Positions 7,823-37,501 of a DNA stretch of 37,501 nucleotides are shown here, piece after piece (position 1 is the first letter of the stretch; the number at the start of each line of letters is the position of its first letter). The notes under the pieces are model-generated. The model was given only the letters and a program-made list of their open reading frames with translations. It had not been told where the DNA came from and ran no database searches. The stretch lies in the IMG/VR virus record IMGVR_UViG_2526164690_000052. One strand, 5' to 3'. A program made the translations under genes and the position numbers. Origin of the DNA: a virus. Lineage: Duplodnaviria > Heunggongvirae > Uroviricota > Caudoviricetes.

Positions 7823-7898
7823 AGCGCGCACAAAACAGGCAAAAGCGGGATTTAAAAATCCTGTAACCGATTAATTAATCAACACAAGGAAAAGCGAC

Positions 7899-8858
7899 AT
7901 GAAAATTTGTATCGACGACGGCTCCACCAACATCAAGCTGGCATGGACTGAGAACGGCGAACGCCGCAACGCCATCAGCCCGAACAGCTTCAAGTCGGAA
8001 TGGTCTGCGCCGTTCGGTGGCACGCAGCCCGCGAACTACATGCTTGATGGCGTGCGCTATGGTTTTGATCCGGTCAGCGATCGCTTTGTCCAGACGACCG
8101 ACACGCAATACCAGTACAGCGATGTGAATATAATTGCCATTCATCACGCGCTGGTCAAATCAGGCATCACACCACAGGAAGTGGATGTGGTTGTCACCCT
8201 GCCACTGAGCGAGTATTTCGATACAAACGCACAGCCGGACATGGCCAACATCAACCGCAAAAAAGCGAACGTCATGCGCCCGGTGGAGTACCAGAACGGC
8301 GAAGCATTCACTATCCGTAACGTACGGGTTATGCCTGAATCCATTCCGGCTGGCTTTAAGGCACTGGCTGACATGAGTCCGTTTGAATCCCTGCTGATTG
8401 TGGATTTGGGCGGAACCACTCTGGATGTGGCAAAGGTTCAGGGGCAACTGGCAGGTATCAGCCAGGTGTTTTGCGATCCACACGTGGGCGTTTCTCTGAT
8501 GGCCGATGCCGTACTGTCGGTGATGGCCACTAACGGTATGCGCACCAGTCACCACATCGCCAATACCATTATCGAACATCGCCATGATGAAGCCTGGCTG
8601 CGCCAGCACATCCACAATGACGCGCATTACGCCAGCCTGATGGCGGTTATTCGTGAAAAGGAAGAAACACTGAAACAACGCGTGATCCGCGCGCTGGCGG
8701 GTTTTTCGGGTTACGGGCGGGTGATGGTTGTCGGTGGAGGGGCGGAGATTGTGGCACCCGCTATCCGCGAAGCCTGCGGAGTTAATGCGACTTTCATCGC
8801 GGACGGGGTGCCACAGTTTGCTCTGGTTAATGGGCTGTACGCAATGGACAAGGAGTAA
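7899..8858 (+). CDS. parM: ParM/StbA-like actin-family segregation ATPase
   Basis: 319 aa; N-terminus MKICIDDGSTNIKLAW...ISPNSFKSEW and internal blocks (YSDVNIIAIHHAL, VMPESIPAG, DLGGTTLD, VGGGAE) match plasmid R1 ParM as recalled. Confidence 0.8.
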   Translation: MKICIDDGSTNIKLAWTENGERRNAISPNSFKSEWSAPFGGTQPANYMLDGVRYGFDPVSDRFVQTTDTQYQYSDVNIIAIHHALVKSGITPQEVDVVVTLPLSEYFDTNAQPDMANINRKKANVMRPVEYQNGEAFTIRNVRVMPESIPAGFKALADMSPFESLLIVDLGGTTLDVAKVQGQLAGISQVFCDPHVGVSLMADAVLSVMATNGMRTSHHIANTIIEHRHDEAWLRQHIHNDAHYASLMAVIREKEETLKQRVIRALAGFSGYGRVMVVGGGAEIVAPAIREACGVNATFIADGVPQFALVNGLYAMDKE

Positions 8859-8862
8859 ACCA

Positions 8863-9174
8863 ATGACGACTCCAACCAGACGGATAAGTTTCTATCTGAA
8901 GCCCACCGCCGTCAAGAACGAAGGAGAAGCATGCGCCTGGCTGGACAGCCTTACACCAGAAGCCCGCAAAAGCGGCCAACGCGTGGCTTTTCTGGCCGGG
9001 CTGGCACTTCTGAAAATGAATCCGGCAGAGGCTTATCGACTGGCTGCATGGGCTGGTGATGAAGCGTTATCAGTGACACAAACCAGGACAGAACGCCCCG
9101 CATCACAGCCAGTATCAACCGCACAGATAACCAGTCAGATGGCCGGAAATATCCGGGCGTTATTTCCTGAATAA
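8863..9174 (+). CDS. parR: ParR/StbB-like partition adaptor
   Basis: 103 aa from ATG 8863 (AGGAG 7 nt upstream); RRISFYLKP...AWLDSLTP...RVAFLAGLALL pattern resembles R1 ParR N-terminal RHH region; directly downstream of parM. Confidence 0.6.
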   Translation: MTTPTRRISFYLKPTAVKNEGEACAWLDSLTPEARKSGQRVAFLAGLALLKMNPAEAYRLAAWAGDEALSVTQTRTERPASQPVSTAQITSQMAGNIRALFPE

Positions 9175-9182
9175 CACAACAT

Positions 9183-9200
9183 CAGGGCGAGTTCGCCCTG
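9183..9200. terminator. Hairpin CAGGGCGA-GT-TCGCCCTG after parR
   Basis: perfect 8-bp inverted repeat immediately after parR stop; no clear U-tract. Confidence 0.35.
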
Positions 9201-9237
9201 CTCTCCACCTCAGAACATAAACAAGGAGAACGACTTA

Positions 9238-9828
9238 ATGAGCGAAATCAACTATCAGGCATTACGTGAACGTTATTCACCTGTGCCAGTACCGAAATGC
9301 CCTATTTGCGGCGAGGAAATGTCAATTCAGCGAATATCTGGAGCACAGGTTGTTTATGCCTGCTCCGGTTATGGTGATGATGGAGATTTCAAAATTGGCC
9401 AAACTCTTGCCGACGAACATTATGAAAAATCACGCGTAACAGTGTTGGATGTCGGGGATCCTGAAGTATTGGCGCTACTTGATTGGCTGGAAACCAAAGA
9501 CAACCGAATCGCTGAACTGGAAAAAATCGCCACTGACTATGCACTTAAATTCCAGAAAGCACAGGACGCATTAAAGTATGCCGCTTTGCTGCATAGCAGG
9601 ACGGCGCAACAAACAAATAATTTTGCAGTATCGCTTCCGGACATAAGCGAATATTTCATTAATGACGTATTTCAGCCCTTGCGATACGAGCGGGATGTTG
9701 AAAGAGCCATCATAAAGGCTGGCGGAAAAGCATTGTGGCAGGAGAAACACGAGGACAGAACGCATCAGTCCTGCGATGTAAATCGTGGATGGTTTAGCCC
9801 ACTGACGACAGATAAAAATAACACCTGA
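9238..9828 (+). CDS. Hypothetical moron protein with N-terminal Cys-rich (zinc-ribbon-like) region
   Basis: 196 aa; KCPICGEEM...YACSGYG near N-terminus; AGGAG RBS; occupies the tin/old-equivalent variable locus between A and cos. Confidence 0.5.
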   Translation: MSEINYQALRERYSPVPVPKCPICGEEMSIQRISGAQVVYACSGYGDDGDFKIGQTLADEHYEKSRVTVLDVGDPEVLALLDWLETKDNRIAELEKIATDYALKFQKAQDALKYAALLHSRTAQQTNNFAVSLPDISEYFINDVFQPLRYERDVERAIIKAGGKALWQEKHEDRTHQSCDVNRGWFSPLTTDKNNT

Positions 9829-9840
9829 TCCCCCTCAAAC

Positions 9841-9866
9841 CAGGGCGATAATCGCGCATCGCCCTG
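9841..9866. terminator. Hairpin CAGGGCGAT-N8-ATCGCCCTG after the 196-aa gene
   Basis: 9-bp perfect inverted repeat; same stem core as hairpin at 9183-9200. Confidence 0.35.
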
Positions 9867-10317
9867 CTGCACAATAGTGCACAAGTTTGCACAATTTTTT
9901 TGAACGACTTTTTACCCTTCCGGCCCGCATGGCGGCTGGATCCGTCAAGGATCCGTGCGTGCACAAAAAAACGCGCTTTTTCTGCGCGCAGGTGACGGGG
10001 GAACAGCCCGCGTTTCAGGGGGTAAATAGCATCCCCTGAACGATGTCGCAGCGACACAACAGAATGGCTGTATTTCTCACGCTGAGCGTGAAAAAGACGT
10101 GAGGGCTTTTGATTTGATGGGTGGCAGATAAGGCCGTCAAAATCGCACTGAGGCGGCGAGAACATGCAGTCAACGCGGTGGGATTGCGTAAGAGTCTGAC
10201 CGCCGATGATGACAATAAGCAGAAAAGCGTCGTGAAATTATCTGATTGATACAGGAGCTGGAGAGTCGGGGCATAAATTTTTTATGCCCCGGCGAAGCAG
10301 CAGACAAGCGAAGCGCG
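9867..10317. other. cos / packaging-site region (candidate cohesive-end sequence near 9991-10009)
   Basis: non-coding stretch between accessory locus and 3' end of portal gene Q, the position of cos in P2-like genomes; dense in palindromes (CTGCGCGCAG 9982-9991) and phased repeats; GGTGACGGGGGAACAGCCC matches the P2 cohesive end as recalled at 13 of 19 positions. Confidence 0.4.
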
Positions 10318-11364
10318 TCAGGATGTGGGCTGGGTATCTAGCAGTGCGTAAGGGTTAAAGCGGATCACCTCTTCGCCAAGCCAGTCATTGATGTGCTTCA
10401 TGGCCTCCATGACGGGCATCAGCTCGTTAATTGCGTAAACCCGCGCGGCCTTCTCCACATCACCAAACGCACTTTTTTCGCCCGGCATCGCCCCCATCAG
10501 TTGCGGCGGAACGCGGTGCGCAGCCAGCACATCATCACGGGATGCCGCCTTAACATTCATGAACTCATCCTTTGCAGTGATCTGCTGGAACGGCAAAATT
10601 TGCACACCTTCTTTGCCCCCGTTGGGCGCATGGATGAGTACGTTTTTAAACGCACCACCACCACGCGCGCCCTGTAACGTTTCTTTCAGGGAGTCCATGC
10701 TTTCGCGGTTTACCTGCGCTGCACCGATGTAGATGATGCACCCGGCGTGGGATCCGTTGTCGTAGTACAGTTTTCTGAACATGTCCGCCGAATGAGAAAG
10801 GCTGGCCGAGAGTAATGCGCCAAGATATTCCGGCATGCCGTAGATTTCCTGGTTAATATCCGGATTCATCAGGTGGCACACTTTGCCAGGGCGAAACTGG
10901 AACGCGTCCTTGCCATCCTGCACATACCACCATGATTCAAGATCGCTTCCGCGTCGCATGTATTTCGCCAGGGCGTGCCGTAATTTAAGCGGTTCGCCGA
11001 GCATATTGCTTCTAAGCTCAAGGAATGCGTTACCGAACACAAACCAGTCCAGCGCCAGCGCCGAGAAATCCTGCCGGGAAAGCAGCGGGTGCGGGATGTA
11101 GCAACCGAGTAATACATTGCGCTTAAAGTAAAGCGCAGACTGATGCCAGGACGTTTGCCGGGCTGCTCTTGCCAGACCGTACCAGTCCACCGGGGTTTCA
11201 TACCACCGTCCGTTATCAGCACAGTACATATTGTCCAGCAGGTCATGCCCGGTCAGGCGATAAGGACCATCAAATGTGAATGCACTGAGCGATGATTCTT
11301 TCCTGAGCGCATCAGCGAGATCAATGCGTGAACTCATGCGCACTTTTTTATTTTTTCTGCTCAT
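10318..11364 (-). CDS. Q: Portal protein gpQ
   Basis: 348 aa; P2 Q-like sequence and synteny (Q-P leftward, overlapping P stop by ATGA). Confidence 0.9.
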   Translation of the reverse strand: MSRKNKKVRMSSRIDLADALRKESSLSAFTFDGPYRLTGHDLLDNMYCADNGRWYETPVDWYGLARAARQTSWHQSALYFKRNVLLGCYIPHPLLSRQDFSALALDWFVFGNAFLELRSNMLGEPLKLRHALAKYMRRGSDLESWWYVQDGKDAFQFRPGKVCHLMNPDINQEIYGMPEYLGALLSASLSHSADMFRKLYYDNGSHAGCIIYIGAAQVNRESMDSLKETLQGARGGGAFKNVLIHAPNGGKEGVQILPFQQITAKDEFMNVKAASRDDVLAAHRVPPQLMGAMPGEKSAFGDVEKAARVYAINELMPVMEAMKHINDWLGEEVIRFNPYALLDTQPTS

Positions 11365-13115
11365 CAGAACTCCATAACCGTGAAACGCTCGTTTTCTCCT
11401 TCGCCGCCAATCGGTTCGTTAATGACAGCAAGCATGGTTGCCCACGCAAGGTCGCCGTGGCTGATCCCCCTCGCGCGGTCCGTTTCGTAAGTGATAAAGC
11501 CGCCCGGTGTTTTCACCTTACGCACGGCGTTAAAGGCCGCGACCAGCTCGCGTTCGGCGCGATCGTATTCCCACCGCCCGGCACGCATTATTTGCAGCAT
11601 TTTCAGTACCAGCGACCGTTTTGATGACAGCGTGAAGGTGTACGGAATAGCAGCAGGGAAAAACCGTTTCACTATCTGATAAACAGCCTCCCCGTTCCCG
11701 CCCGTCACATCAATGCCGATGTGTTCCACGTTGTAGCGATACGTGAACTCTTCAATGACTCTGGCCTGTTCTTCAAACTCCAGCCCCTGAACGCGTCGCG
11801 TCTCCACCGTTCGAAAACGGCCACCAGGAACAGCCGGAGGAACCACCACGGACACAGCGCCGCTGTCGCCGTTGCCACTACTGCCGTTTGCGTCATACCC
11901 AATCCATACCGGACGATTCCCCATCGGGCGGGGAGCAAAAGGTTTCCAGTCTTTCCAGTCGTCGTATCCGTCAACACCGCAGCCAATCAGGATATTCAGG
12001 TTAAATGCCGATTCCCCTTCGCGGACAAACTCACACATATAGAGATTGAGGAACTCGTCTTCGGTGTTTTCATCACGAATTTCGTCGATATCGGTGTGTT
12101 TCCAGCCGTGATTGACCACATCTTCCAGCGTGACAATTTGCCGCCACGTCCGGTCAGGGCAGATAAGCCCGTTATGCAGCGTTTTCCAGTCCACAGAAAA
12201 ACGCTGGCGTTTATGCGTGGCCTTTTTCTCGTTCCAGCGGTCGCCGTTCCAGTAGGCGTATGCCTCGTGCGTTTCGGTGGATGGCGTGGAGAAGTAGGTG
12301 CGCCGCAGTCCGCTGAGGGTTGCCATAGCGCCAGCCACCTTGCGCAGTTCAGCAAAGCGACTGACCCAGAAAAATTCATCAAAATAAAAATTGCCCGTAT
12401 AGGACTGTGCCGACGCAGCAGAAGTGCCGAGAAAATGCAGCTCTGCGCCGTTGGAGAGGATGATTTTATCGCCCCCTTTCAGCTCCACATCAACTTCAGC
12501 CGCGGCCTTCTGAATAATGCTTTTAAACTGGAACGCCTGACGACGCGACGCAGACAAAAAAATCTGGTTACGCTGGTAAGGTTGCGCCACATCGTCACGC
12601 AGCGCCATCAGCAGAGCTTCCTGTGCAAAATACCAGGTCGCCCCAATCTGTCGGGATTTCAGGATCATCCTGTTACGTATCCCGGCTTCCCTGCAAAGGG
12701 TCAGGGAGTCAAACCAGCCCCGCTGATGCCACTCCAGCCTGCTGATGATTTTTTCCCGCAGTGCGGCAATCTGTTCCGGCGTGAAATGATTTTTGAGTTT
12801 TTTCGCCCGGCCTTTCTTTCCTGTGACCGTCGCATCCGGCTGGCCATCATGCAGTTTTTTAAGCTGCCGGGTCAGCAGGTCTATTTCCTTAAAGTCACCG
12901 CCTGTTTTATTCTGTTTTTCAGTAAGCTGGATGAGGCGCGCATCGATGGACTGCGTGACACGCTGCACGGGTGGCGTTTCATCCCACTGGTCGCGTTTTT
13001 TCCACGCATAAATCGTGTTCGGGTTTATTCCCATCAGACGTGATATTTCTGCGGGCGGATAACCCTGCCAGTAAAGTTGCCGCGCACGCTGGCGCACAAA
13101 AGCGTCCTGAATCAT
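11364..13115 (-). CDS. P: Terminase large (ATPase) subunit gpP
   Basis: 583 aa; P2 P-like; divergent from O across a 120-bp late promoter region. Confidence 0.9.
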   Translation of the reverse strand: MIQDAFVRQRARQLYWQGYPPAEISRLMGINPNTIYAWKKRDQWDETPPVQRVTQSIDARLIQLTEKQNKTGGDFKEIDLLTRQLKKLHDGQPDATVTGKKGRAKKLKNHFTPEQIAALREKIISRLEWHQRGWFDSLTLCREAGIRNRMILKSRQIGATWYFAQEALLMALRDDVAQPYQRNQIFLSASRRQAFQFKSIIQKAAAEVDVELKGGDKIILSNGAELHFLGTSAASAQSYTGNFYFDEFFWVSRFAELRKVAGAMATLSGLRRTYFSTPSTETHEAYAYWNGDRWNEKKATHKRQRFSVDWKTLHNGLICPDRTWRQIVTLEDVVNHGWKHTDIDEIRDENTEDEFLNLYMCEFVREGESAFNLNILIGCGVDGYDDWKDWKPFAPRPMGNRPVWIGYDANGSSGNGDSGAVSVVVPPAVPGGRFRTVETRRVQGLEFEEQARVIEEFTYRYNVEHIGIDVTGGNGEAVYQIVKRFFPAAIPYTFTLSSKRSLVLKMLQIMRAGRWEYDRAERELVAAFNAVRKVKTPGGFITYETDRARGISHGDLAWATMLAVINEPIGGEGENERFTVMEF

Positions 13116-13269
13116 TGCTCCCCCTGAGTAATTACAGGAAGATTACCCGCGCGCGAAACTGTTCTCCTTAACCCCCTGTTCTGGCCGTTTTCTTACAACA
13201 AAATCCCTTTGTATCAGCCTGTTACGCTTTGCCATCATGACTGAAGAACCAGTCAGAGGGGCAAAAACT
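13116..13269. promoter_or_regulatory. Divergent late promoter region (P and O operons)
   Basis: intergenic region between divergent P and O; contains TGT...ACA dyad (cctgttctggccgttttcttacaac); assignment by synteny with P2 late promoters. Confidence 0.4.
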
Positions 13270-14106
13270 ATGGCTAATGAAAAAAAGACATCCCGCAAAA
13301 AGTTTCGCGTGGCTGTCTCCGGATCAACTGTTGATGGCCGCGAAATCAGCCCGGTACATCTGCATGAAGCCGCCGAGAACTTCAACCCGGATGTTTACGC
13401 TGCCCGCGTGAACGTTGAGCACTATCTCTCGCCATGCCCGTCAAGCGAATTTTCCGCAATGGGCGATGTCACCGCGCTGAGTACGGAAGATATTACGGAA
13501 GGCCCGCTGGCCGGACGTACTGCGCTGTATGCAGAAATCGAACCGACCGAGCGCATGAAGCAGCTTGTCGCTGACGGCAAGAAAATCTATTCCAGTATCG
13601 AACTGCACCCGCAGTTCTCCGTTAACGGGCGTGCCTATCTGGTCGGGCTGGCGATGACCGACACCCCGGCAAGCCTGGGCACTGAGCGCCTGAAATTCAC
13701 GGCACAGCAGCGTCAGGCGGTGATGACGTTCAACAGTATCCAGGGTGAAGCACCGCTTATCTCCGAAGCCATCGAGTCTGAAATCATCGAAATGGCAGAA
13801 CAACGCCAGGAAGAAGGCACCCAGTGGTTTAACCGCGTAATGGGGATTATTGGTCGTGGCCGCAAAGCGGATGACGCCAGTTTCTCCCGTATTCAGGAAG
13901 CGGTGGAAGGCGTTGCAACATCACAGGCCGACATTATCGACCGTTTTAATGTGCTGGAAACCCGCCATCAGCAGGACCGCCAGAAAATCACGTCACTGAC
14001 CACAGAGCTGACAGCACTGAAGGAAAAACTGCGCACGCAGGACGGCGATCCGCAGAACCGCTTCACCGCAACGGGCGCAGCCTCCGACCAGCTGGCTGAC
14101 TTCTGA
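13270..14106 (+). CDS. O: Capsid scaffolding protein gpO
   Basis: MANEKKTSRKKFRVAVSGSTVDGREIS resembles P2 gpO N-terminus; ORF-track frame 13237..14106 with start moved to ATG 13270. Confidence 0.85.
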   Translation: MANEKKTSRKKFRVAVSGSTVDGREISPVHLHEAAENFNPDVYAARVNVEHYLSPCPSSEFSAMGDVTALSTEDITEGPLAGRTALYAEIEPTERMKQLVADGKKIYSSIELHPQFSVNGRAYLVGLAMTDTPASLGTERLKFTAQQRQAVMTFNSIQGEAPLISEAIESEIIEMAEQRQEEGTQWFNRVMGIIGRGRKADDASFSRIQEAVEGVATSQADIIDRFNVLETRHQQDRQKITSLTTELTALKEKLRTQDGDPQNRFTATGAASDQLADF

Positions 14107-14129
14107 TAAGACAAAGGAGCAAATTTTTT

Positions 14130-15182
14130 ATGAATCTGGTGATGTCAGATATTACCCGCAACAAGCTGGGTTGCTATATGGCGCAGCAGGCGTCGCTTAA
14201 CAATATCCCGGTATCTGCACTGGTATCGCGATTTACCGTGGAACCCGCGGTGCAGCAGCGTTTTGAAAACGCCTCAAAGGAAAGTACCGAATTTACGAAA
14301 AGAATTAACGTGATCGGCGTGACCGACCAGAAAGGCGAAAAAATCCTCCCGGACACCACCGGGCCAATTGCGCGCACGAATAGCAGTTATGACGGCATCA
14401 AACGCCGTAACCCGAATAACGTGATCGATATGAAGTCTCGTCAGTACCAGTGCGAACAGGTGAACTACGATACCTTTATTTCGTACCCACAGCTTGATAC
14501 CTGGGCGGCCCACAGCGATTTTCAGTCCCGTATCAGTACACAGATCGCCCGGCAGGTAGCGCTTGATCGCATCATGATTGGCTTTAACGGCACATCCCAC
14601 GCCTACGAGTCTGATTTTCACACCAACAAGCTGCTTCAGGACGTTAACGTGGGCTGGCTGGAGCACATCAGAACCGATGCCAGCAAGCGCGTAATGAATG
14701 ACGTGACGCTGACCTCCCGCAACATGGACAACACTGTGGCGCACGCGGGTAAGTATGCGAATGCCGATGCTCTGGTACAGGATGCGCGCTCATCCCTGCT
14801 GGATGAATGGCACAAGGAAGCTGACGACCTCGTGGTGATTATGGGGCGCAACCTGTTTAACTCGCTGCGTCTGCCCGTGCTGAACAGCATCAGCGGCCAG
14901 AATCCCAATGCGGAATTACTTGCCGGGCAGCTCATCCTGTCATCGCGCACCATTGGCGGGCTGGGCGTGTTCCTTGCGCCGTTCTTCCCGGATGCAACGA
15001 TGCTTATCACCTCGTTCAACAACCTGTCGATTTACTGGCAGAAAGGTTCAATGCGTCGTCTGATGAAAGACGAGCCGGAATACAACCGCATCGCCACCTA
15101 CCAGTCCATCAATGACGCTTATGTCGTTGAAGACTATGGCAAGTGCGCGATGGTCACTGGCCTGAAGTTCGCCGACAGCTAA
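14130..15182 (+). CDS. N: Major capsid protein gpN
   Basis: 350 aa; P2 N-like (FTVEPAVQQ..., FNGTSHAYESD..., VVEDYGK blocks); AAGGAG RBS. Confidence 0.9.
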   Translation: MNLVMSDITRNKLGCYMAQQASLNNIPVSALVSRFTVEPAVQQRFENASKESTEFTKRINVIGVTDQKGEKILPDTTGPIARTNSSYDGIKRRNPNNVIDMKSRQYQCEQVNYDTFISYPQLDTWAAHSDFQSRISTQIARQVALDRIMIGFNGTSHAYESDFHTNKLLQDVNVGWLEHIRTDASKRVMNDVTLTSRNMDNTVAHAGKYANADALVQDARSSLLDEWHKEADDLVVIMGRNLFNSLRLPVLNSISGQNPNAELLAGQLILSSRTIGGLGVFLAPFFPDATMLITSFNNLSIYWQKGSMRRLMKDEPEYNRIATYQSINDAYVVEDYGKCAMVTGLKFADS

Positions 15183-15227
15183 TCAACTCACGGCGGGCAT
15201 CATGCCCGCCTGTAACGGAGAGAAAAA

Positions 15228-16028
15228 ATGATTACTCCTGCACAACAACACTGGCAGAACGTGATGGCACAGCGCGCAGGCCGGGCGAATGAAGGTGTGG
15301 ACCACGCCGCGTGTACCGCGCATGAAGAAGTGCTGTATCGTCTGCGTCTGGCACAGGCCAGGCTAAAGGCCATACAGGCCAGAAGCGCGAAAGCCGCCAT
15401 CAAAAAAGAGTTGTTGCCGGACTTTTCCGGCTGGATTGAGGGAACGCTGGAGGCTGACGGCGGGCAACAGGACGAAGTAATTGCCACGCTGATGGTGTGG
15501 GCGATTGACTGCGGCGATCTTCCACTGGCGCTGCGTATTGGTGCATATGTGGTCCGTCACAACCTCATCATGCCGGATAACTTTGGCCGTACTGCTGCCA
15601 CGGTACTGACCGAAGAAATCTGCAACCCGGTACTGACGCAGGCTGGGACGGATGCCGACGCGGATTTATCCGCCTTTATCGAACCACTGGACACACTTTG
15701 GGAAATTGTCGCCAACCAGGACATTCCGGACGAAGTGCGCGCCAAATTATGCAAGGCGTGTGCCTTTGCCCGTCGTGGCCTGACCGATGCAGACAACATG
15801 GCCTCATCACTGAAGCTGCTGCGCGAAGCGATGCACCTGAACCCGAACGCAGGTGTGAAACGCGAGATTGCAACCCTTTCCCGCGCCCTGAAAAAAGCCG
15901 ATTCCGCAGCCGAACCAGAAGACGCCAGCGCACAGCAGGCGCAGGACGAAAGCAGCAAAAATAAAAAGACAACGCGGAAGCCTGCAACACGAAAAACCAC
16001 CGCGACGCAGAAGGCAAAGCGCGGTTAA
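15228..16028 (+). CDS. M: Terminase small (endonuclease) subunit gpM
   Basis: 266 aa; P2 M-like; synteny. Confidence 0.85.
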   Translation: MITPAQQHWQNVMAQRAGRANEGVDHAACTAHEEVLYRLRLAQARLKAIQARSAKAAIKKELLPDFSGWIEGTLEADGGQQDEVIATLMVWAIDCGDLPLALRIGAYVVRHNLIMPDNFGRTAATVLTEEICNPVLTQAGTDADADLSAFIEPLDTLWEIVANQDIPDEVRAKLCKACAFARRGLTDADNMASSLKLLREAMHLNPNAGVKREIATLSRALKKADSAAEPEDASAQQAQDESSKNKKTTRKPATRKTTATQKAKRG

Positions 16029-16045
16029 CGACTGACCCCGTCAGC

Positions 16046-16115
16046 GGGCGGCGTGCGCGGTGTTCCGGTTTGACTCCGTGACCGTTTACACCGCGCACCC
16101 ACCGCCCGATTTTTT
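16046..16115 (+). terminator. Intrinsic terminator/attenuator-like hairpin between M and L
   Basis: GGGCGGCGTGCGCGGTG (16046-16062) pairs with CACCGCGCACCCACCGCCC (16089-16107), followed by T6 run (16110-16115). Confidence 0.45.
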
Positions 16116-16120
16116 CAGGA

Positions 16121-16624
16121 GTGAACCCCATGAGTATGGTTGCCAGAACTAACCCCGGCCCCGCAGAGGACGACATCACCGATACCGATGATGGCGACAC
16201 TCGCATTTCAGCGGGTGCATTCTGGCCGGATATTGTGCTGCGTGAGCTGCGTCTGGCGGTACGACTGCCGGGCCGCGTGACCACCTCCCGCCTGCTGCAT
16301 ACCGCCACCGGGGCCATAGCACACGTTACCCGCGAGCTGGAAGCATGGCAGCAGGAACAACAGGCGGCTGGCTATCAGACGCTGGCCGATGTTCCGGCCC
16401 CTGTAATTAACGGAGAAAGCGTCAATCTCTGGCACTGGCGCAATGCTGTTTATACCGCCACACGCGCCCTGATTCTGGAGCGTTACCGCGATGCGGACAC
16501 AACGGACAAGGGCGACCGCCGGGCGGACGCACTGGATATACAGACATCGGATTTGTGGCGCGATGTGAGCTGGGCCATCTCTGACATTCTGGGACGACCG
16601 CGAATGTTTGCGGAGCTGTGCTGA
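16121..16624 (+). CDS. L: Head completion/stabilisation protein gpL
   Basis: 167 aa; synteny and P2 L-like sequence; GTG start. Confidence 0.85.
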   Translation: MNPMSMVARTNPGPAEDDITDTDDGDTRISAGAFWPDIVLRELRLAVRLPGRVTTSRLLHTATGAIAHVTRELEAWQQEQQAAGYQTLADVPAPVINGESVNLWHWRNAVYTATRALILERYRDADTTDKGDRRADALDIQTSDLWRDVSWAISDILGRPRMFAELC

Positions 16625-16824
16625 TGAAAGTGAAGGCACTGGAAGGCGACACCGTGGATTCGCTCTGTTTCCGGTACTACGGCACGACACGGGGCGTCAC
16701 CGAAAAGGTGCTGGATGCCAACCCCGGACTCTGTCAGCAGGTATTTCTGGACGCCGGGCAGGAAGTGGAGATGCCGGAGCCGGAGAAGAAGAAACGAGAA
16801 ATGATTCAGTTGTGGGGGGAGTAG
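16624..16824 (+). CDS. X: Tail protein gpX
   Basis: MKVKALEGDTVDSLCFRYYG... P2 X-like; ATG overlaps L stop. Confidence 0.8.
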   Translation: MKVKALEGDTVDSLCFRYYGTTRGVTEKVLDANPGLCQQVFLDAGQEVEMPEPEKKKREMIQLWGE

Positions 16825-16826
16825 CA

Positions 16827-17150
16827 GTGAGCACCATTCAAACAGGGATCACAGAGCAGGTTATTGCGTGGCTCTTTGACCACCTGCCAACGGTGTATGC
16901 AGTAGGCGCGGCTGTCAGCATTTCCGCGCTGATGAGTCTTTATGACGGACGAACACTGGTTCAGACCGTAACGGGATCGCTGGCGTGCGGCGTTCTTGCC
17001 ATGGCCGTGGCCGGGTCGCTGCGCTTCTTCGGGATCCCTGAGGATGCAGTGACGTTTTTTGGTGCCTCAATCGGTTTTATGGGCGCAGAGAAAGCACGCG
17101 ACAAGGTTATTGCAATATTTGATCGCAGGGTGAAGGAGAGGAACGAATGA
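16827..17150 (+). CDS. Holin (class with 2-3 TM segments)
   Basis: about 107 aa from GTG 16827 preceded by GGGGGGA; hydrophobic segments; position equals P2 gene Y. Confidence 0.55.
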   Translation: MSTIQTGITEQVIAWLFDHLPTVYAVGAAVSISALMSLYDGRTLVQTVTGSLACGVLAMAVAGSLRFFGIPEDAVTFFGASIGFMGAEKARDKVIAIFDRRVKERNE

Positions 17151-17539
17151 GCAACACATTTAAATTCAGCAGCCGAAGCGAAAAGAATTTGCAGGGTGTA
17201 AATCCTGATCTGGTGAAAGTGACCCGACGGGCGCTGGAAATCTCGGAAGTGGATTTTGGTATCACCGAAGGATTGCGCAGTCGTTATCGTCAGAAGCAGC
17301 TCGTGACCACAGGCAAGAGCCAGACCATGAACAGTCGCCATCTCAAAGGGCATGCCGTGGATGTTGTGGCTTATGTTGGCAGCCAGGTGTCATGGGAATG
17401 GCCGCTGTACGAAAAAATCGCAGCAGCATTCAGACAGGCCAGCCGGGAACTGAATATTCCGGTGGAATGGGGCGGCGACTGGAAGACCCTGAAAGACGGA
17501 CCGCATTTTCAGTTACCACACGGAGCCTATCCGGCATGA
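17147..17539 (+). CDS. Endolysin, peptidase M15 (L-Ala-D-Glu peptidase / VanY-like) family
   Basis: 130 aa; motifs SRHLKGHAVDV and WGGDW...PHFQ typical of zinc D,D/L,D-peptidases; this is not the lysozyme-type P2 K. Confidence 0.7.
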   Translation: MSNTFKFSSRSEKNLQGVNPDLVKVTRRALEISEVDFGITEGLRSRYRQKQLVTTGKSQTMNSRHLKGHAVDVVAYVGSQVSWEWPLYEKIAAAFRQASRELNIPVEWGGDWKTLKDGPHFQLPHGAYPA

Positions 17540-17943
17540 AGCTCTGGCCCACGCTTGGCGTCGCTTTCCTTCTGATTGCCGCATGGGGAACATCCATGCG
17601 TCTGTCGTGGTCGCTGGGCCGGGAGAACGCCAGAAACGAAGCGCAGGCCAGCACCCTGAAAAGTACCGTCGACACACTGAATATCATCAGCGCCGGGGTA
17701 CAGGATATGCAGCAGGTGCTGGCTCAACTCCGCGCGGACAATCAGCAACGCAATCAGGACGGAGAGGTAAGACGTGAACAGCTACGCAACGATATTGCAA
17801 AAGATGAATGCGCCCACGCTTTGCCTGACGCTCGTTTTACTGACAGGTTGCGCAGGCACGCAGAACGCGCCACGGCCAGCGCCGTCAGTCCGGCTTATAC
17901 CGCAGACGCTGACCATGCCGGTAACGCCTCCCCCCTTCCCTGA
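17536..17943 (+). CDS. Inner-membrane spanin (Rz/LysB-like)
   Basis: ATG 17536 overlaps endolysin stop; N-terminal TM (LWPTLGVAFLLIAAWG) then coiled-coil-like region. Confidence 0.6.
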   Translation: MKLWPTLGVAFLLIAAWGTSMRLSWSLGRENARNEAQASTLKSTVDTLNIISAGVQDMQQVLAQLRADNQQRNQDGEVRREQLRNDIAKDECAHALPDARFTDRLRRHAERATASAVSPAYTADADHAGNASPLP

Positions 17944-32643: not shown

Positions 32644-33744
32644 ATGACCGATACCACCATGCAATTGCTCAGTCAGAGCACAGACCCCGTGAAAATGCCG
32701 GATTTTGATATTCTCGCGGAGGGGGAAACACTGTCCGGCGTGGCAGAGCGCCTGATGAGCCTGTCACTGACCGACAACCGGGGATTTGAAGCGGACCTGC
32801 TCACCATCACGCTGGATGATGCGGATGGTCAGTTGCAGCTACCGCCACGGGGCGCGCGCCTGACGGTTCTCATTGGCTGGAAAGGAGAACCGCTGACAGA
32901 AAAAGGCACTTACATTGTTGATGAAATCGCTCACGAAGGACCGCCGGACAGGCTGACTGTTTCAGCCAGAAGCGCAGATTTTCGGGATGAATTTAACGTT
33001 AAACGTGAGGTGTCCTGGCATGATGTGACCGTTGAGCGCGTGGTATCCGCCATCGCTCATCGGTACGGTCTGAAACCACAAATCAGCGAAATGCTGATGG
33101 ATATTGAAATCGACCACGCCGACCAGACCGAAGAAAGCGACATGTCCTTCCTTACGCGCATGGCGGAAATGCTGGGCGCAATCACTACGGTAAAAAGCAG
33201 TAATCTGTTATTCATCATGCCAGGCGGTGGCGTGAACGCACAGGGCCAGCCGTTGCCATCGTTCGCCATCACGCGCAGCAGTGGCGATCGCCATCAGTTC
33301 CGCATTGCTGACCGCGAAGCGTATACGGGGGTACGTGCTTACTGGCTTGATCTTAATTACGGGAAAAAGAAAAAAGTCAGCGTGAAACGCCGCAAACCGA
33401 AAAAGGAGAAAAGCAGCAGCCGTGAAGGTGACTATATGGAAGGTGCGGAAGGCAACGTGTTTGTGTTACGCAAGACTTATCAGAACGAGCAGGCAGCAAG
33501 ACGTGCAGCGGCGGCAAAGTGGCAGCAGCTACAACGCGGAGCCGCATCATTCTCCATCACGCTGGCGCGTGGACGCGCAGAACTCTATCCCGAAATGCAT
33601 GGCACGGTGACAGGCTTCAAAAGTGACATCGATAATCAGGACTGGATTATTGCAAAAGCCGAGCACACCATTGATAACAGCGGCTTTACCACACAGCTTG
33701 AGCTTGAAGCAAAAATCCCGGAATGGATAGCAGAAACAGAATGA
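32644..33744 (+). CDS. D: Tail protein / late control protein gpD
   Basis: start ATG 32644 after AGGGAGGG RBS; LTDNRGFEAD, RSADFR, SWHD, GDRHQFRIADREAYTGV, DNSGFTTQLELE blocks are P2 D-like; divergent from FI. Confidence 0.85.
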   Translation: MTDTTMQLLSQSTDPVKMPDFDILAEGETLSGVAERLMSLSLTDNRGFEADLLTITLDDADGQLQLPPRGARLTVLIGWKGEPLTEKGTYIVDEIAHEGPPDRLTVSARSADFRDEFNVKREVSWHDVTVERVVSAIAHRYGLKPQISEMLMDIEIDHADQTEESDMSFLTRMAEMLGAITTVKSSNLLFIMPGGGVNAQGQPLPSFAITRSSGDRHQFRIADREAYTGVRAYWLDLNYGKKKKVSVKRRKPKKEKSSSREGDYMEGAEGNVFVLRKTYQNEQAARRAAAAKWQQLQRGAASFSITLARGRAELYPEMHGTVTGFKSDIDNQDWIIAKAEHTIDNSGFTTQLELEAKIPEWIAETE

Positions 33745-34143
33745 GCAAATTAGATGTATTGACTCAAACCAGAACTGACACACTCACAGCACAGTGCCAG
33801 ACCCAATCTGGCAGCCCGCTTTGTGCCTAGAGCAGGTGTTGCTTATGTAACAGTTAATCCACGGATAGTGGTCATGAATGCTGGTTGAAGTTGTATTGCC
33901 ATGAGTGGTCAATTAGGGACTCACTTATTATCGCGTGCTCACCATTGATGGGTAAGATCATGCATTTCGGCTACTGTACTTCGCGAATCCTCCGCACACA
34001 GGCAACACCTGATTTAAGAACAGAGGGAGATGATGACGCAAGGAAGATTTATTATCGTGCATGTGGCAGATGATCTTTTAGCTGCCGGAGTGATAAATTA
34101 CACCTATTTTCGATAAGTGTTTTTGTTATAGAACATTAATTTC

Positions 34144-34795
34144 GTGGGAAACAATAAAGTGAAATTAGGAAGAAATGATAAGTGCTGGTGTAATTCAGGA
34201 CTTAAGTATAAAAAGTGCCATCTTGGTCGAGATCGTGAAACTCCGGTATCCAAAGCCGAGGCACTGAAATTTTCAAAGTCTCTCTCGCAGAGAAAGGCAT
34301 GTTATGCGCCAGCATCCATGCACGAAGATTGTGATAAACGCATCGTTCAGGCGCATACGATATCTAAGAGCAGTAGCCTTAAGGCGATCGCCGACTCCAG
34401 CAATCACGTCATGGGGGTGATAATGAACTTAGCAAGCCTGATGAGAAACAACGGAAAATGGCTTCCCGAGAAGATCGGTATCAATCAGGCATCCACTTTT
34501 ACAGGATTTTGTGCAGTTCATGACAGAATCTTATTTTCATGCCTAGAGAACGAAAAATTTACAGGCACGGACGAGCAGTGCTTTGCCTTAATGTTTCGTT
34601 CATTGTCTAAAGAAATTTATGCCAAAGAAGGGGGAGTGCTATCTTCTGATTTTGCTAAAAATGCCGATAAAGGAAAGCTACAAGTTGAACAGTATTATAT
34701 TCAGAAATTAATCGACCAGCACCAAAGTGGCTTAAATGCAGCAATAATTGAATTAAATAATCTTAAAACTAGCCTCGACCGCATCCTACTTAGCA
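34144..34795 (+). pseudogene. N-terminal part of an IS10-disrupted cargo gene (SEC-C zinc-motif protein)
   Basis: ORF with N-terminal CWCNSGLKYKKCH (SEC-C-type metal-binding motif); reading frame runs into IS10 end at 34796 and stops 11 codons inside the IS; AT-rich. Confidence 0.6.
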
Positions 34796-36124
34796 CTGAG
34801 AGATCCCCTCATAATTTCCCCAAAGCGTAACCATGTGTGAATAAATTTTGAGCTAGTAGGGTTGCAGCCACGAGTAAGTCTTCCCTTGTTATTGTGTAGC
34901 CAGAATGCCGCAAAACTTCCATGCCTAAGCGAACTGTTGAGAGTACGTTTCGATTTCTGACTGTGTTAGCCTGGAAGTGCTTGTCCCAACCTTGTTTCTG
35001 AGCATGAACGCCCGCAAGCCAACATGTTAGTTGAAGCATCAGGGCGATTAGCAGCATGATATCAAAACGCTCTGAGCTGCTCGTTCGGCTATGGCGTAGG
35101 CCTAGTCCGTAGGCAGGACTTTTCAAGTCTCGGAAGGTTTCTTCAATCTGCATTCGCTTCGAATAGATATTAACAAGTTGTTTGGGTGTTCGAATTTCAA
35201 CAGGTAAGTTAGTTGCTAGAACCCATGGCTCCTTTGCCGACGCTGAGTAGATTTTAGGTGACGGGTGGTGACAATGAGTCCGTGTCGAGCGCTGATTTTT
35301 TCGGCCTTTAGAGCGAGATTTATACAATAGAATTTGGCATGAGATTGGATTGCTTTTAGTCAGCCTCTTATAGCCTAAAGTCTTTGAGTGACTAGATGAC
35401 ATATCATGTAAGTTGCTGATAGGTTTCCAGTTTTCCGCTCCTAGGTCTGCATATTGTACTTTTCCTCTTACTCGACTTAACCAGTACCAACCCAGCTTCT
35501 CAACGGATTTATACCATGGCACTTTAAAGCCAGCATCACTGACAATGAGCGGTGTGGTGTTACTCGGTAGAATGCTCGCAAGGTCGGCTAGAAATTGGTC
35601 ATGAGCTTTCTTTGAACATTGCTCTGAAAGCGGGAACGCTTTCTCATAAAGAGTAACAGAACGACCGTGTAGTGCGACTGAAGCTCGCAATACCATAAGT
35701 CGTTTTTGCTCACGAATATCAGACCAGTCAACAAGTACAATGGGCATCGTATTGCCCGAACAGATAAAGCTAGCATGCCAACGGTATACAGCGAGTCGCT
35801 CTTTGTGGAGGTGACGATTACCTAACAATCGGTCGATTCGTTTGATGTTATGTTTTGTTCTCGCTTTGGTTGGCAGGTTACGGCCAAGTTCGGTAAGAGT
35901 GAGAGTTTTACAGTCAAGTAATGCGTGGCAAGCCAACGTTAAGCTGTTGAGTCGTTTTAAGTGTAATTCGGGGCAGAATTGGTAAAGAGAGTCGTGTAAA
36001 ATATCGAGTTCGCACATCTTGTTGTCTGATTATTGATTTTTCGCGAAACCATTTGATCATATGACAAGATGTGTATCCACCTTAACTTAATGATTTTTAC
36101 CAAAATCATTAGGGGATTCATCAG
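34796..36124 (-). mobile_element. IS10 insertion sequence (IS4 family), complete 1329 bp, flanked by 9-bp target duplication TACTTAGCA
   Basis: terminal sequences CTGAGAGATCCCCTCATAATTTCCCC (34796 onward) and ...AATCATTAGGGGATTCATCAG (ending 36124) match IS10 inside and outside ends as recalled; direct repeats at 34787-34795 and 36125-36133 fit the IS10 target consensus. Confidence 0.9.
34809..36017 (-). CDS. IS10 transposase
   Basis: 402 aa beginning MCELDILHDSLYQFCPELHLKRLNSLTLACHALLDCKTLTLTELGRNLPTKARTKHNIKRIDRLLGNRHLHKE, recognised as Tn10/IS10 transposase. Confidence 0.9.
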   Translation of the reverse strand: MCELDILHDSLYQFCPELHLKRLNSLTLACHALLDCKTLTLTELGRNLPTKARTKHNIKRIDRLLGNRHLHKERLAVYRWHASFICSGNTMPIVLVDWSDIREQKRLMVLRASVALHGRSVTLYEKAFPLSEQCSKKAHDQFLADLASILPSNTTPLIVSDAGFKVPWYKSVEKLGWYWLSRVRGKVQYADLGAENWKPISNLHDMSSSHSKTLGYKRLTKSNPISCQILLYKSRSKGRKNQRSTRTHCHHPSPKIYSASAKEPWVLATNLPVEIRTPKQLVNIYSKRMQIEETFRDLKSPAYGLGLRHSRTSSSERFDIMLLIALMLQLTCWLAGVHAQKQGWDKHFQANTVRNRNVLSTVRLGMEVLRHSGYTITREDLLVAATLLAQNLFTHGYALGKL

Positions 36125-36621
36125 TACTTAGCAGGCAATTTTCAGAAATTGAAAGTGTTATCTTCACTTTTGCAGAGCCTTTACCAATTGTAGTTTCGTC
36201 AATTCTTTCACCGGAGAGGGATTTCGATGGGACCAAAATTCAGGATTTGAGCGATCTTACAGTGTCGGCGGAACAAGTATGTTTCAATGCTTTTTCCTGC
36301 GGAGGTAAGGGATATGTAGTGTTCAGTTGGCTGAGAACTTCAACAATTATCAGACGTTTTATACGGACACTAATTAAGATCCCAGCTAACAGGATGTTCA
36401 ATACCCTTCTGTATTTTTTCTTCACAAAGGCCGAAAATACATATTCATCCCCTGAGTGGTGGGACAGGCTCAGTGATAAACAGCGAGAGAATATCGGCAA
36501 CATGATTATGTCAGGGGTTGAATTTTTTGGCAGACCTACATCACAGGTTGATCATTCCGTTGATTATAACGCCGCTGCACTTGAAGAGATAACATGCAGC
36601 AACAACGAAATTTGCAGCTGA
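36125..36621 (+). pseudogene. C-terminal part of the IS10-disrupted cargo gene
   Basis: after removing IS10 and one TSD copy the upstream frame continues without stops (..ILLS-RQFSEIESVIF..) to stop at 36619-36621, giving a 379-aa ORF. Confidence 0.55.
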
Positions 36622-36910
36622 ATGTTTACATGCTGTTAGAAAAAGCGGGCTGAACAATCATTTCGGGATTGTAACAGATAAGATGGCACTGCCCGCTTGC
36701 TTCCCGATATGCACCTCAGCCAATAAACTTATGTAAGCAACCGATTTCCATTTATGCGGAGGTTATCAAAGTTGTTGGAGTTGCGAACTTCCGCTCTTCG
36801 CACAAAGCGTACCGCTAGGTTTGATTGTATTCTGGCTGCGCAAACTGTCAGTTGGAGTCTGAGCTATTACAACTTAGAATAGCGGCAGCACCACGTTAAG
36901 GGAGGTCGCT

Positions 36911-37171
36911 ATGTTCCGTTGTCCGCTTTGTGGCGCATCTGCCCGAATCCGCACCAGTCGTCCGGAAAACGATTCAAACACTGTGCGGCAAAAGTATTAC
37001 CAGTGTAACAACCTGGAATGCGGCGTATGCTTCTCAACACTGGAAGCTTTCCATAAATTCACATCAAAACACGCCTCCGGCGTTCACTCTTCGGAAGGTA
37101 TCCCGTGGCATGAGCTGCCAGCTTCACACAGGGGAAACAATCAGATGAGTTTGCCTTTACCTCAGAATTAA
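36911..37171 (+). CDS. ogr: Late gene transcriptional activator, Ogr/Delta zinc-finger family
   Basis: 86 aa; MFRCPLCGASARIRTSRPENDSNTVRQKYYQCNNLECG has the C-x2-C...C-x4-C pattern of P2 Ogr; located downstream of D. Confidence 0.85.
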   Translation: MFRCPLCGASARIRTSRPENDSNTVRQKYYQCNNLECGVCFSTLEAFHKFTSKHASGVHSSEGIPWHELPASHRGNNQMSLPLPQN

Positions 37172-37360
37172 CAGGCAGAATTGCCGGAGTAACAAAAAAC
37201 GATAGATTACCCGCGGGTGCCTTTCGGCTGATGGTCGGAGGAATACCCGAAGGCCGGATGTGGAAAGGCCCCGGAAAACATTTCTGTTTAACCGAGGCCC
37301 TAACATATCTACCTTAAGCAAGTGATAGGTTAGCGCCTCTCCAACAAAGGAGCAAGCGCT

Positions 37361-37501
37361 ATGTCGCAAAAATCGCTTACAGCCATCACGTTCTGCGTGA
37401 CGGTAATCCTCATCATCTGGATGCTACACGGTTCGCTGTGTGAAATACGGATGAGCTTCTGGGGAGCGGAGTTTGCGGCGTTCTTACAGTGTAAGCAGTA
37501 A
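37361..37501 (+). CDS. Hok/Gef-family type I toxin (small membrane peptide)
   Basis: 46-aa ORF MSQKSLTAITFCVTVILIIWMLHGSLCEIRMSFWGAEFAAFLQCKQ; TM helix followed by SLCE(I/L) and (E)xAAFL motifs shared with HokA/Hok as recalled; below ORF-track cutoff; stop codon is the last 3 bases of the window. Confidence 0.65.
   Translation: MSQKSLTAITFCVTVILIIWMLHGSLCEIRMSFWGAEFAAFLQCKQ

What the first reader, a model, noticed from the sequence alone, without database searches (positions are those of the whole stretch)
34144..36621. IS10 insertion splitting a 379-aa SEC-C-motif cargo gene between D and ogr
A complete 1329-bp IS10 (34796-36124) is flanked by a perfect 9-bp direct repeat TACTTAGCA that fits the IS10 target consensus. 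Removing the IS and one repeat copy fuses ORF 34144.. in frame to the ORF ending at 36621, reconstructing a 379-aa AT-rich protein with an N-terminal CWCNSGLKYKKCH zinc motif and no other recognisable domain. P2 has no gene between D and ogr, so this is an accessory gene at a known cargo position that has been knocked out. That fits a costly defence or toxin-like gene, and the intact ancestral protein can be reconstructed for testing.
Basis: seen in the sequence. Interest (0 to 1): 0.65.

Follow-up and report, generated by a model that had tools for sequence, protein, structure and literature searches.

The report
IS10-broken Rugutis-like phage-defence gene
A mobile element (IS10) has split a prophage cargo gene that is a distant E. 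coli relative of Rugutis, a single-gene anti-phage system so far tested only in dairy lactococci; intact copies exist, so the E. coli gene can be tested directly.

Summary
A complete 1329-bp IS10 (34796-36124) is flanked by the 9-bp duplication TACTTAGCA. Removing it restores a 379-aa ORF identical to an intact annotated E. coli protein (WP_001317900.1), and the uninterrupted locus has one TACTTAGCA.

The gene is real and belongs to a very large family (4604 clusters at 50% identity). Its RefSeq name, "YecA family", is a misnomer: only the 18-aa SEC-C zinc motif is shared.

It is a full-length homologue of 359-aa SEC-C proteins on lactococcal plasmids (BLASTP 4e-38; hhalign probability 100%, E 6e-59). 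These match the published Rugutis system, which blocks phage after DNA injection, was grouped with abortive-infection-like systems, and becomes toxic when phage c2 large terminase is expressed. As reported for Rugutis, a confident AF2 model has no PDB match.

The D-ogr gap is a variable single-gene cargo slot. It is empty in 720 of 1202 E. coli genomes and holds at least six different cargos.

"Knocked out because costly" is not shown. 89 of 92 carriers have an uninterrupted copy, and the IS10 strains carry at least 40 IS10 copies. However, IS600 hit the same gene independently, right next to the IS10 target.

Verdict: a new member of a known kind, of moderate interest.

The parts
32644..33744 (+). 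P2 gene D homologue (tail/baseplate hub), the left border of the cargo slot
   Evidence: Pfam PF05954 Phage_GPD. RefSeq calls it 'phage late control D family protein' at the equivalent L001 2900-4000.
33755..36869 (.). Cargo cassette, defined against P2-like prophages with an empty D-ogr site. It is 3115 bp here and 1777 bp without IS10 and one repeat copy. Short imperfect repeats flank it: GCAAATTAGA on the left and ACAACTTAGA on the right.
   Evidence: BLAST of the window against the empty site L015 (strain M00057): homology ends at 33754 and resumes at 36870.
33816..34143 (+). Conserved non-coding leader, about 330 nt, that travels with the gene
   Evidence: About 81-83% nucleotide identity to the region upstream of the homologues in a Salmonella island and in the Pantoea chromosome. 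No ORF is conserved among them. The test for RNA structure was inconclusive.
34144..34795 (+). 5' part of the Rugutis-like gene: codons 1-217 plus the first base of codon 218. As it stands it reads on into IS10 and stops at 34830 (228-aa ORF).
   Evidence: RefSeq marks it as a pseudogene, 'YecA family protein, missing C-terminus'.
34171..34224 (+). SEC-C zinc-binding motif, aa 10-27 (RNDKCWCNSGLKYKKCHL)
   Evidence: Pfam PF02810, E 2e-08. A PDB profile search hits only SecA C-terminal peptides and YchJ-C.
34300..34548 (+). Conserved Cys/His core, aa 53-135: C53, C63, A70-H71, GFC123xxH126-D127, F131, E135. These residues are invariant from Gammaproteobacteria to Firmicutes.
   Evidence: Alignments A1 and A5 and the hhalign comparison.
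34787..34795 (.). Left copy of the 9-bp target-site duplication, TACTTAGCA
   Evidence: The intact locus L001 has a single copy.
34796..36124 (-). IS10, 1329 bp, complete. The inside end is on the left and the outside end on the right.
   Evidence: Length and terminal repeats; RNA-OUT; 100% identical copies on plasmids; RefSeq annotation of the transposase.
34809..36017 (-). IS10 transposase CDS, 402 aa, intact
   Evidence: WP_001339197.1.
36010..36079 (+). RNA-OUT, the IS10 antisense RNA. It is transcribed outward, towards the 3' gene fragment and ogr.
   Evidence: Rfam RF00240, 98.8 bits, E 1.2e-20.
36125..36133 (.). Right copy of the target-site duplication, TACTTAGCA
36134..36621 (+). 3' part of the gene: the rest of codon 218 through codon 379, plus the stop codon. 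It encodes the C-terminal alpha/beta domain.
   Evidence: RefSeq pseudogene 'hypothetical protein, missing N-terminus'.
36911..37171 (+). ogr (late-gene activator), the right border of the cargo slot
   Evidence: Pfam PF04606 Ogr_Delta; RefSeq annotation.
37215..37501 (+). hok/sok-type toxin-antitoxin module at the right end of the prophage
   Evidence: Pfam HOK_GEF for 37361-37501. Rfam sok match at 37215-37371, 46.7 bits, below the gathering score of 59.

Best explanation
The split ORF is an IS10-inactivated copy of a single-gene anti-phage defence gene of the Rugutis family. A P2-like prophage of E. coli O111:H11 carries it as an optional cassette, about 1.8 kb with its own roughly 330-nt leader, in the gap between tail gene D and ogr.

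Shown here:
- The gene is real, and intact copies of identical sequence exist.
- It always occurs alone, in mobile or variable DNA.
- It is homologous over its full length to the lactococcal 359-aa SEC-C proteins that correspond to Rugutis.

Taken from the Rugutis papers and inferred for this gene: in a lysogen the intact protein would sit idle. When a superinfecting phage reaches its late stage and makes its large terminase, the protein would be activated and would arrest or kill the cell before progeny are released (abortive-infection type).

Inferred from the model and the alignments:
- The architecture is an N-terminal SEC-C zinc knuckle, a Cys/His core, a 75-residue antiparallel helical hairpin, and a C-terminal alpha/beta domain.
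- The SEC-C knuckle is an optional targeting or tethering module, because some family members lack it.
- C53, C63, C123 and H126 may form a second metal site, with H71, D127 and E135 as candidate catalytic residues. This is my speculation.
- The effector chemistry is unknown. My best guess, at low confidence, is a metal-dependent hydrolase or nuclease-like activity.

In this window the IS10 insertion at codon 218 removes the C-terminal domain, so the system is almost certainly dead. The insertion is most simply a by-product of an IS10 burst in this lineage.
For: Reality of the gene:
- The reconstruction is identical to the intact E. coli protein.
- 92 complete E. coli genomes carry it, and 89 have it uninterrupted.
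- The family numbers 4604 clusters at 50% identity with E <= 1e-3, and 1456 with E <= 1e-30.

Homology to Rugutis:
- tblastn finds 5 Lactococcus plasmids.
- L007 encodes a 359-aa SEC-C protein on a dairy plasmid from Ireland.
- BLASTP gives 26% identity over 358 aa, E 4e-38.
- hhalign of the proteobacterial profile against the Firmicutes profile gives probability 100%, E 6e-59, over 326 columns.
- The L007 protein retrieves Pontibacillus litoralis and Clostridia homologues, the same taxa the Rugutis paper lists.

Context:
- The gene is solo in a Salmonella integrase/AlpA island next to PARIS-like genes (AAA_15 + DUF4435).
- It is solo in a Pseudomonas island with an integrase and a zeta toxin.
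- It is solo in an E. coli island with H-NS paralogues and AlpA.
- It lies in a Pantoea chromosomal region and between housekeeping genes in Psychrobacter.
- It is on alphaproteobacterial plasmids next to VapBC or ABC-3C-type genes.

Cargo slot: D and ogr are adjacent in 720 of 1202 genomes, and other genomes carry different single genes there.

Against: - No experiment exists for the E. coli protein. Identity to the lactococcal protein is only 26%, so the trigger and the outcome may differ.
- I could not confirm residue by residue that L007's protein is the published Rugutis (pUCCL633_059), because no supplementary sequences are held.
- The mutated c2 TerL variants were still toxic with Rugutis, so the sensing model is itself incomplete (PMC12184496).
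- PADLOC 2023 does not recognise the protein beyond the SEC-C motif. PADLOC predates Rugutis and does not recognise the lactococcal protein either.
- A prophage that has its own large terminase and carries a terminase-triggered suicide gene needs some self-tolerance, which is unexplained.
Confidence: 0.7

Rival explanations
1. The IS insertion was selected because the gene is costly or auto-toxic, for example through self-triggering by terminases of the many resident EHEC prophages. The gene would still be a defence or toxin gene, but its loss would be adaptive rather than incidental.
For: - Two different IS elements hit the same 1140-bp gene independently. One is IS10 in O111:H11. The other is IS600 in strain CFSAN027346, with the duplication TCC immediately 5' of the IS10 target 9-mer.
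- Rugutis constructs could not be introduced into, or were unstable in, two lactococcal hosts (PMC11381338).
- The same IS10 allele also appears in an IMG/VR contig.
Against: - 89 of 92 carriers have an uninterrupted copy, and 80 of them are at least 99% identical to the query, so there is no general decay.
- The IS10 strains hold at least 40 IS10 copies.
- The target resembles the IS10 hot-spot consensus.
- Two insertions so close together fit a local transposition hot spot as well as they fit selection.
Confidence: 0.2
2. The gene is prophage cargo with a role other than defence. It could be a SecB- or ribosome-associated factor, as the RefSeq name 'YecA family protein' suggests, a lysogenic-conversion or virulence factor, or a plain toxin.
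For: - The only recognisable motif is SEC-C, known from SecA, YecA and YchJ.
- There is no functional test in E. coli.
- The alternative cargos in the same slot match no PADLOC model.
Against: - Similarity to YecA is limited to 18-24 residues. NCBIfam NF007704 scores 17.9 bits against a cut-off of 149, and only profile positions 197-220 match.
- The SEC-C motif is N-terminal here, and some family members lack it.
- The rest of the protein is homologous to the lactococcal SEC-C proteins that correspond to the experimentally validated Rugutis.
- The patchy, solo distribution across mobile elements is typical of defence genes.
Confidence: 0.1
3. The reconstructed ORF is a chance open frame and the 9-bp repeat is a coincidence.
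For: None found.
Against: - An exactly identical intact protein is annotated in dozens of genomes, and the empty site has a single copy of the 9-mer.
- The family is conserved over its full length from Firmicutes to Proteobacteria.
- A specific 9-mer repeats at a given position by chance about once in 260,000.
Confidence: 0.01

Closest known systems
Rugutis (Lactococcus plasmid pUCCL633_059; NAR 2024, PMC11381338; PNAS 2025, PMC12184496)
   Same: - Both are single genes of about 360-380 aa with an N-terminal SEC-C motif.
- Homology runs the full length (BLASTP 4e-38; hhalign probability 100%).
- The C..C..AH and GFCxxHD motifs are conserved.
- Both give a confident AF2 model with no PDB match.
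- Both are carried on mobile DNA.
   Different: - Identity is only 26%.
- The host is Gram-negative and the carrier is a P2-like prophage, not a plasmid.
- The residues H88 and N114, invariant in the proteobacterial clade, are not conserved in the lactococcal clade.
- Activity, phage range and trigger are untested for the E. coli protein.
- I could not check the exact published sequence.
YecA, YchJ and the SecA C-terminal metal-binding domain (SEC-C motif, PF02810)
   Same: They share the 18-aa CxC...C(H/C) zinc knuckle.
   Different: Nothing else is shared. There is no UPF0149 or SecA domain, and the motif is at the N-terminus rather than the C-terminus. The RefSeq label 'YecA family protein' is therefore misleading.
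Terminase-sensing defence systems such as Avs2 (a 'works like' comparison only)
   Same: If the Rugutis trigger carries over, both detect the phage large terminase late in infection and respond with cell death or growth arrest (PMC12184496; PMC13601566 abstract).
   Different: No STAND NTPase domain was detected, the protein is much smaller, the fold is unrelated, and the effector is unknown.
Single-gene defences in the P2 Q-A hotspot (old, tin, the DUF4238 protein; Rousset et al. 2022, PMC9122126)
   Same: All are AT-rich accessory genes that sit between conserved P2 genes and are swapped between otherwise similar prophages.
   Different: The slot is different: D-ogr rather than Q-A. There is no detectable sequence relationship; no DUF4238 hit appeared for any of 36 family members even at E <= 10.
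IS10 (the flanking element of Tn10)
   Same: It has the same 1329-bp length, a 9-bp target duplication, a 402-aa transposase and RNA-OUT.
   Different: Nothing notable. I did not align it to a named Tn10 IS10R or IS10L reference. RefSeq labels the transposase as ISVsa5 family.

Membership tests
Rugutis family (single-gene SEC-C anti-phage system) | Full-length sequence homology to the lactococcal 359-aa protein | tested here: met
   BLASTP gives 26% identity over 358 aa, E 4e-38. hhalign gives probability 100%, E 6e-59, over 326 columns. Caveat: the link between L007's protein and the published Rugutis rests on its length, host, plasmid origin, SEC-C motif and the shared list of distant homologues, not on a sequence check.
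Rugutis family (single-gene SEC-C anti-phage system) | N-terminal SEC-C zinc motif | tested here: met
   PF02810 at aa 10-27, E 2e-08. The motif is present in all 36 aligned relatives, but a few family members lack it.
Rugutis family (single-gene SEC-C anti-phage system) | Stand-alone gene with no conserved partner | tested here: met
   The neighbours differ in every context examined.
Rugutis family (single-gene SEC-C anti-phage system) | Confidently predicted fold without a match in the PDB | tested here: met
Rugutis family (single-gene SEC-C anti-phage system) | Protects against phage after DNA injection, with an abortive-infection-like phenotype | not testable with these tools
   Known only for the lactococcal protein (PMC11381338).
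Rugutis family (single-gene SEC-C anti-phage system) | Toxicity triggered by the phage large terminase | not testable with these tools
   Known only for phage c2 TerL and lactococcal Rugutis (PMC12184496).
YecA family (the RefSeq name for this protein) | YecA-type architecture over the whole protein: a UPF0149 domain with a C-terminal SEC-C motif (architecture from my own knowledge) | tested here: not met
   Pfam finds only SEC-C, and at the N-terminus. NCBIfam NF007704 scores 17.9 bits against a cut-off of 149 and matches only profile positions 197-220.
HNH / His-Me finger nucleases (my own hypothesis for the Cys/His core) | beta-beta-alpha metal fold with a conserved catalytic His and Asn or His | tested here: inconclusive
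IS10 | About 1.33 kb, a 9-bp target duplication, a DDE transposase of 402 aa, and RNA-OUT | tested here: met
P2-like prophage cargo (moron) in a variable slot | Present or absent, or replaced by unrelated genes, between the same conserved flanking genes in related prophages | tested here: met
   D and ogr are adjacent in 720 genomes. Six different cargos were seen in the others. P2 itself has an 81-bp gap.

The most novel reading that the evidence does not exclude
The D-ogr gap of P2-like prophages may be a third hotspot of single-gene defence cargo that has not been described. I saw at least six alternative genes there, and none is recognised by PADLOC. Two different IS elements landing next to each other at codon 218 of the Rugutis-like gene may reflect selection. 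That selection could act to disable a terminase-sensing suicide gene that clashes with the many resident prophages of EHEC, or to truncate the protein just after its helical hairpin.
Probability: 0.2. Interest if true: 0.6.

Novelty: new member of a known kind. Interest (0 to 1): 0.4.

Why it matters
Rugutis is an experimentally validated defence system with an unknown fold and unknown chemistry. It has been studied only in Lactococcus.

This work shows that a full-length relative sits intact in the P2-like prophages of about 90 complete E. coli genomes, including O26, O111 and O103 strains. That gives a genetically tractable model for asking how a SEC-C protein senses a terminase and what it does next.

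It also corrects a misleading database name ("YecA family protein").

Finally, it points to the D-ogr gap as an unexplored place to look for new single-gene defence systems.

The IS10 event itself is ordinary pseudogenisation in an IS-rich lineage.

Tried and rejected

2. Relationship to DUF4238, the single-gene T7 defence of the P2 Q-A hotspot. No DUF4238 hit appeared for any of 36 members even at E <= 10.

4. PADLOC, NCBIfam and PHROGs. Only the SEC-C motif matched.

5. Promoter and terminator scan of the intact locus. Nothing exceeded the shuffled expectation.

6. Conserved ORF or RNA structure in the 330-nt leader. No ORF is shared. RNAalifold on 3 distinct sequences was inconclusive. Rfam had no match there.

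7. The published Rugutis sequence. No supplementary files are held.

8. Literature on a D-ogr hotspot, or on WP_001317900. Nothing was found.

9. The Listeria 'phage' hits come from an unverified, unannotated record. I did not use them.
Full report
1. The observation

The window is a complete P2-like prophage. It runs from the integrase at the left end (1-1002, - strand) to ogr and hok at the right end. It lies next to tRNA-Leu/Cys/Gly, pgsA and uvrC in bovine E. coli O111:H11 strains 88.0502 and 88-19539.

Positions 34796-36124 are a complete 1329-bp IS10:
- It has the expected terminal repeats.
- It has an intact 402-aa transposase on the - strand.
- It carries the IS10-specific antisense RNA-OUT (Rfam, 98.8 bits).
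- Identical copies occur on many plasmids.

The element is flanked by TACTTAGCA at 34787-34795 and at 36125-36133. Removing the IS and one repeat copy gives an in-frame 1140-nt ORF. The uninterrupted locus of E. coli O26:H11 11368 encodes exactly this 379-aa protein (WP_001317900.1). It has a single TACTTAGCA, and its flanks are 100% and 99.6% identical to the window.

Two small corrections apply. The IS splits codon 218, leaving a 228-aa ORF made of 217 native and 11 IS-encoded residues. The real start may be the GTG at 34159, where many homologues begin.

2. What the gene is

Pfam, NCBIfam, PHROGs and PADLOC recognise only an 18-residue SEC-C zinc motif, at aa 10-27. The RefSeq name 'YecA family protein' rests on that motif alone. 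The YecA model scores 17.9 bits against a cut-off of 149.

The protein nevertheless belongs to a very large family. A profile of the region after the SEC-C motif finds 4604 cluster representatives at E <= 1e-3 and 1456 at E <= 1e-30. Most are 360-380 aa and carry the N-terminal SEC-C motif, although a few lack it.

A tblastn search of plasmids found Lactococcus plasmids. One is pLLF72B, from an Irish dairy isolate, and it encodes a 359-aa 'SEC-C domain-containing protein'. The homology evidence is:
- BLASTP against the E. coli protein gives 26% identity over 358 residues, E 4e-38.
- A profile-profile comparison of the proteobacterial and Firmicutes clades gives probability 100%, E 6e-59, over 326 columns.

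This lactococcal protein matches the published Rugutis system in several ways: 359 aa, a single gene, an N-terminal SEC-C motif, and a lactococcal plasmid from the same country. Its distant homologues (Pontibacillus litoralis, Clostridia) are the ones the paper lists. I could not compare it with the deposited sequence itself.

3. What is known about Rugutis (from the papers)

- It is one of seven new lactococcal plasmid systems and it acts after phage DNA injection. The paper reports that all but one of its systems behave like abortive infection (PMC11381338).
[quoted passage not shown] Expressing c2 TerL lowers viability specifically in cells that carry Rugutis. However, the mutated TerL was still toxic, so the sensing step is not fully understood (PMC12184496).

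4. Anatomy of the E. coli protein

AF2 with 36 homologues gives pLDDT 87.9 and pTM 0.86. The parts are:
- a SEC-C knuckle (aa 10-27);
- a helix (aa 37-48);
- a mixed alpha/beta core (aa 50-135);
- a 75-residue antiparallel helical hairpin (aa 143-217);
- a C-terminal alpha/beta domain (aa 223-345);
- a variable tail.

The residues invariant from Firmicutes to Proteobacteria include the SEC-C cysteines, C53, C63, A70-H71, G121-F122-C123, H126-D127, F131, E135, R152, E157, K161, Q187, D247, Q254, W283 and N319.

IS10 sits between the hairpin and the C-terminal domain.

5. Context

The gene is always solo and lies in mobile or variable DNA:
- the P2-like prophage studied here;
- a Salmonella integrase/AlpA/DUF927 island, next to AAA_15 + DUF4435 (PARIS-type) genes;
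- an E. coli island with H-NS paralogues and AlpA;
- a Pantoea chromosomal region;
- a Pseudomonas island with an integrase and a zeta toxin;
- a site between parC and a hydrolase gene in Psychrobacter;
- alphaproteobacterial plasmids, next to VapBC or ABC-three-component genes;
- IS-rich lactococcal plasmids.

A cassette of about 1.6 kb, which includes roughly 330 nt of non-coding leader, is about 83% identical between the E. coli prophage, the Salmonella island and Pantoea.

6. The D-ogr slot

In P2, D and ogr are 81 bp apart. Of 1202 E. coli genomes that match a D-end plus ogr probe, 720 have the two genes adjacent (42 bp apart in strain M00057). The others carry different single genes in the slot:
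- the Rugutis-like gene (92 genomes);
- a 384-aa hypothetical protein;
- a 500-aa PIN_4 protein;
- a 389-aa DUF3800 protein;
- a 465-aa hypothetical protein;
- a 221-aa hypothetical protein.

None of these matches PADLOC. The papers I read describe the Q-A and Z/fun loci, not this one.

7. Why the gene is broken here

- 89 of 92 carriers have the gene uninterrupted, and 80 copies are at least 99% identical.
- The IS10 allele occurs in two complete genomes, both bovine O111:H11 strains, each with at least 40 IS10 copies against a median of 2. It also occurs in one IMG/VR contig that breaks off inside the IS.
- The target resembles the IS10 hot-spot consensus.

An incidental hit during an IS burst is therefore the simplest reading.

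One observation argues the other way. Strain CFSAN027346 has an independent IS600 insertion, with the duplication TCC, immediately 5' of the IS10 target 9-mer. Two insertions within about 10 bp in a 1140-bp gene would happen by chance roughly 1-2% of the time. This could be a local transposition hot spot or selection; I cannot tell which.

8. Verdict

- The finding is real.
- The gene is a new, untested E. coli member of a recently described defence family whose mechanism is unknown.
- The IS10 event is ordinary pseudogenisation.
- The slot and the intact orthologue are the useful leads.

Noticed in passing
window 33745-36910 (the D-ogr gap); loci L013, L014, L021-L024: The D-ogr gap of E. coli P2-like prophages is a variable single-gene cargo slot. 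It is empty in 720 of 1202 genomes. Besides the SEC-C gene it can hold a 384-aa, a 465-aa or a 221-aa hypothetical protein, a 500-aa PIN_4 protein, or a 389-aa DUF3800 protein. None matches PADLOC 2023.
   Followed up: partly
L025 5145-6404 (E. coli CFSAN027346); equivalent to window ~34784-34786: An independent IS600 insertion (duplication TCC) disrupts the same gene immediately 5' of the IS10 target 9-mer. Two different IS elements have landed within about 10 bp of each other. Whether this is a transposition hot spot or selection is unresolved.
   Followed up: partly
window 33816-34143: A non-coding leader of about 330 nt is conserved at about 81-83% and travels with the gene into a Salmonella island and the Pantoea chromosome. 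No ORF is shared among them. It may be a regulatory 5' region; the test for RNA structure was inconclusive.
   Followed up: partly
window 36010-36124: IS10 RNA-OUT and its promoter pOUT point outward, towards the 3' gene fragment and towards ogr about 790 bp downstream. Read-through could in principle affect expression of the late-gene activator. This was not tested.
   Followed up: no
window 33745-33765 and 36855-36875: The cassette junctions carry a short imperfect direct repeat (GCAAATTAGA on the left, ACAACTTAGA on the right). It overlaps the single GCAACTTAGA of empty sites, which suggests cassette exchange by recombination at microhomology.
   Followed up: partly
window 37215-37501: A hok/gef toxin gene (Pfam HOK_GEF) with a sok-like antisense RNA (Rfam 46.7 bits, below the gathering score) lies at the right end of the prophage. 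It is present in every related prophage examined.
   Followed up: partly
window 7899-9828: The classical Q-A hotspot of this prophage holds a ParM/StbA-type plasmid-segregation protein (7899-8858) and an Ead/Ea22-like protein (9238-9828), not a recognisable defence system.
   Followed up: partly
window 26182-26787 (- strand): A 201-aa ORF with a weak hexapeptide-repeat (acetyltransferase-like) match lies on the opposite strand, just after the tail-fibre assembly gene. It may be another cargo gene.
   Followed up: no
window 34144-34161: The start codon is ambiguous. RefSeq uses the GTG at 34144 (379 aa), but many homologues begin at the equivalent of the GTG at 34159 (MKLGRN..., 374 aa).
   Followed up: partly
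database annotation of WP_001317900.1 and its relatives: The RefSeq name 'YecA family protein' is based only on the SEC-C motif and is misleading. PADLOC 2023 E2, E1-E2 and PDC-S12 models also hit only this motif.
   Followed up: yes
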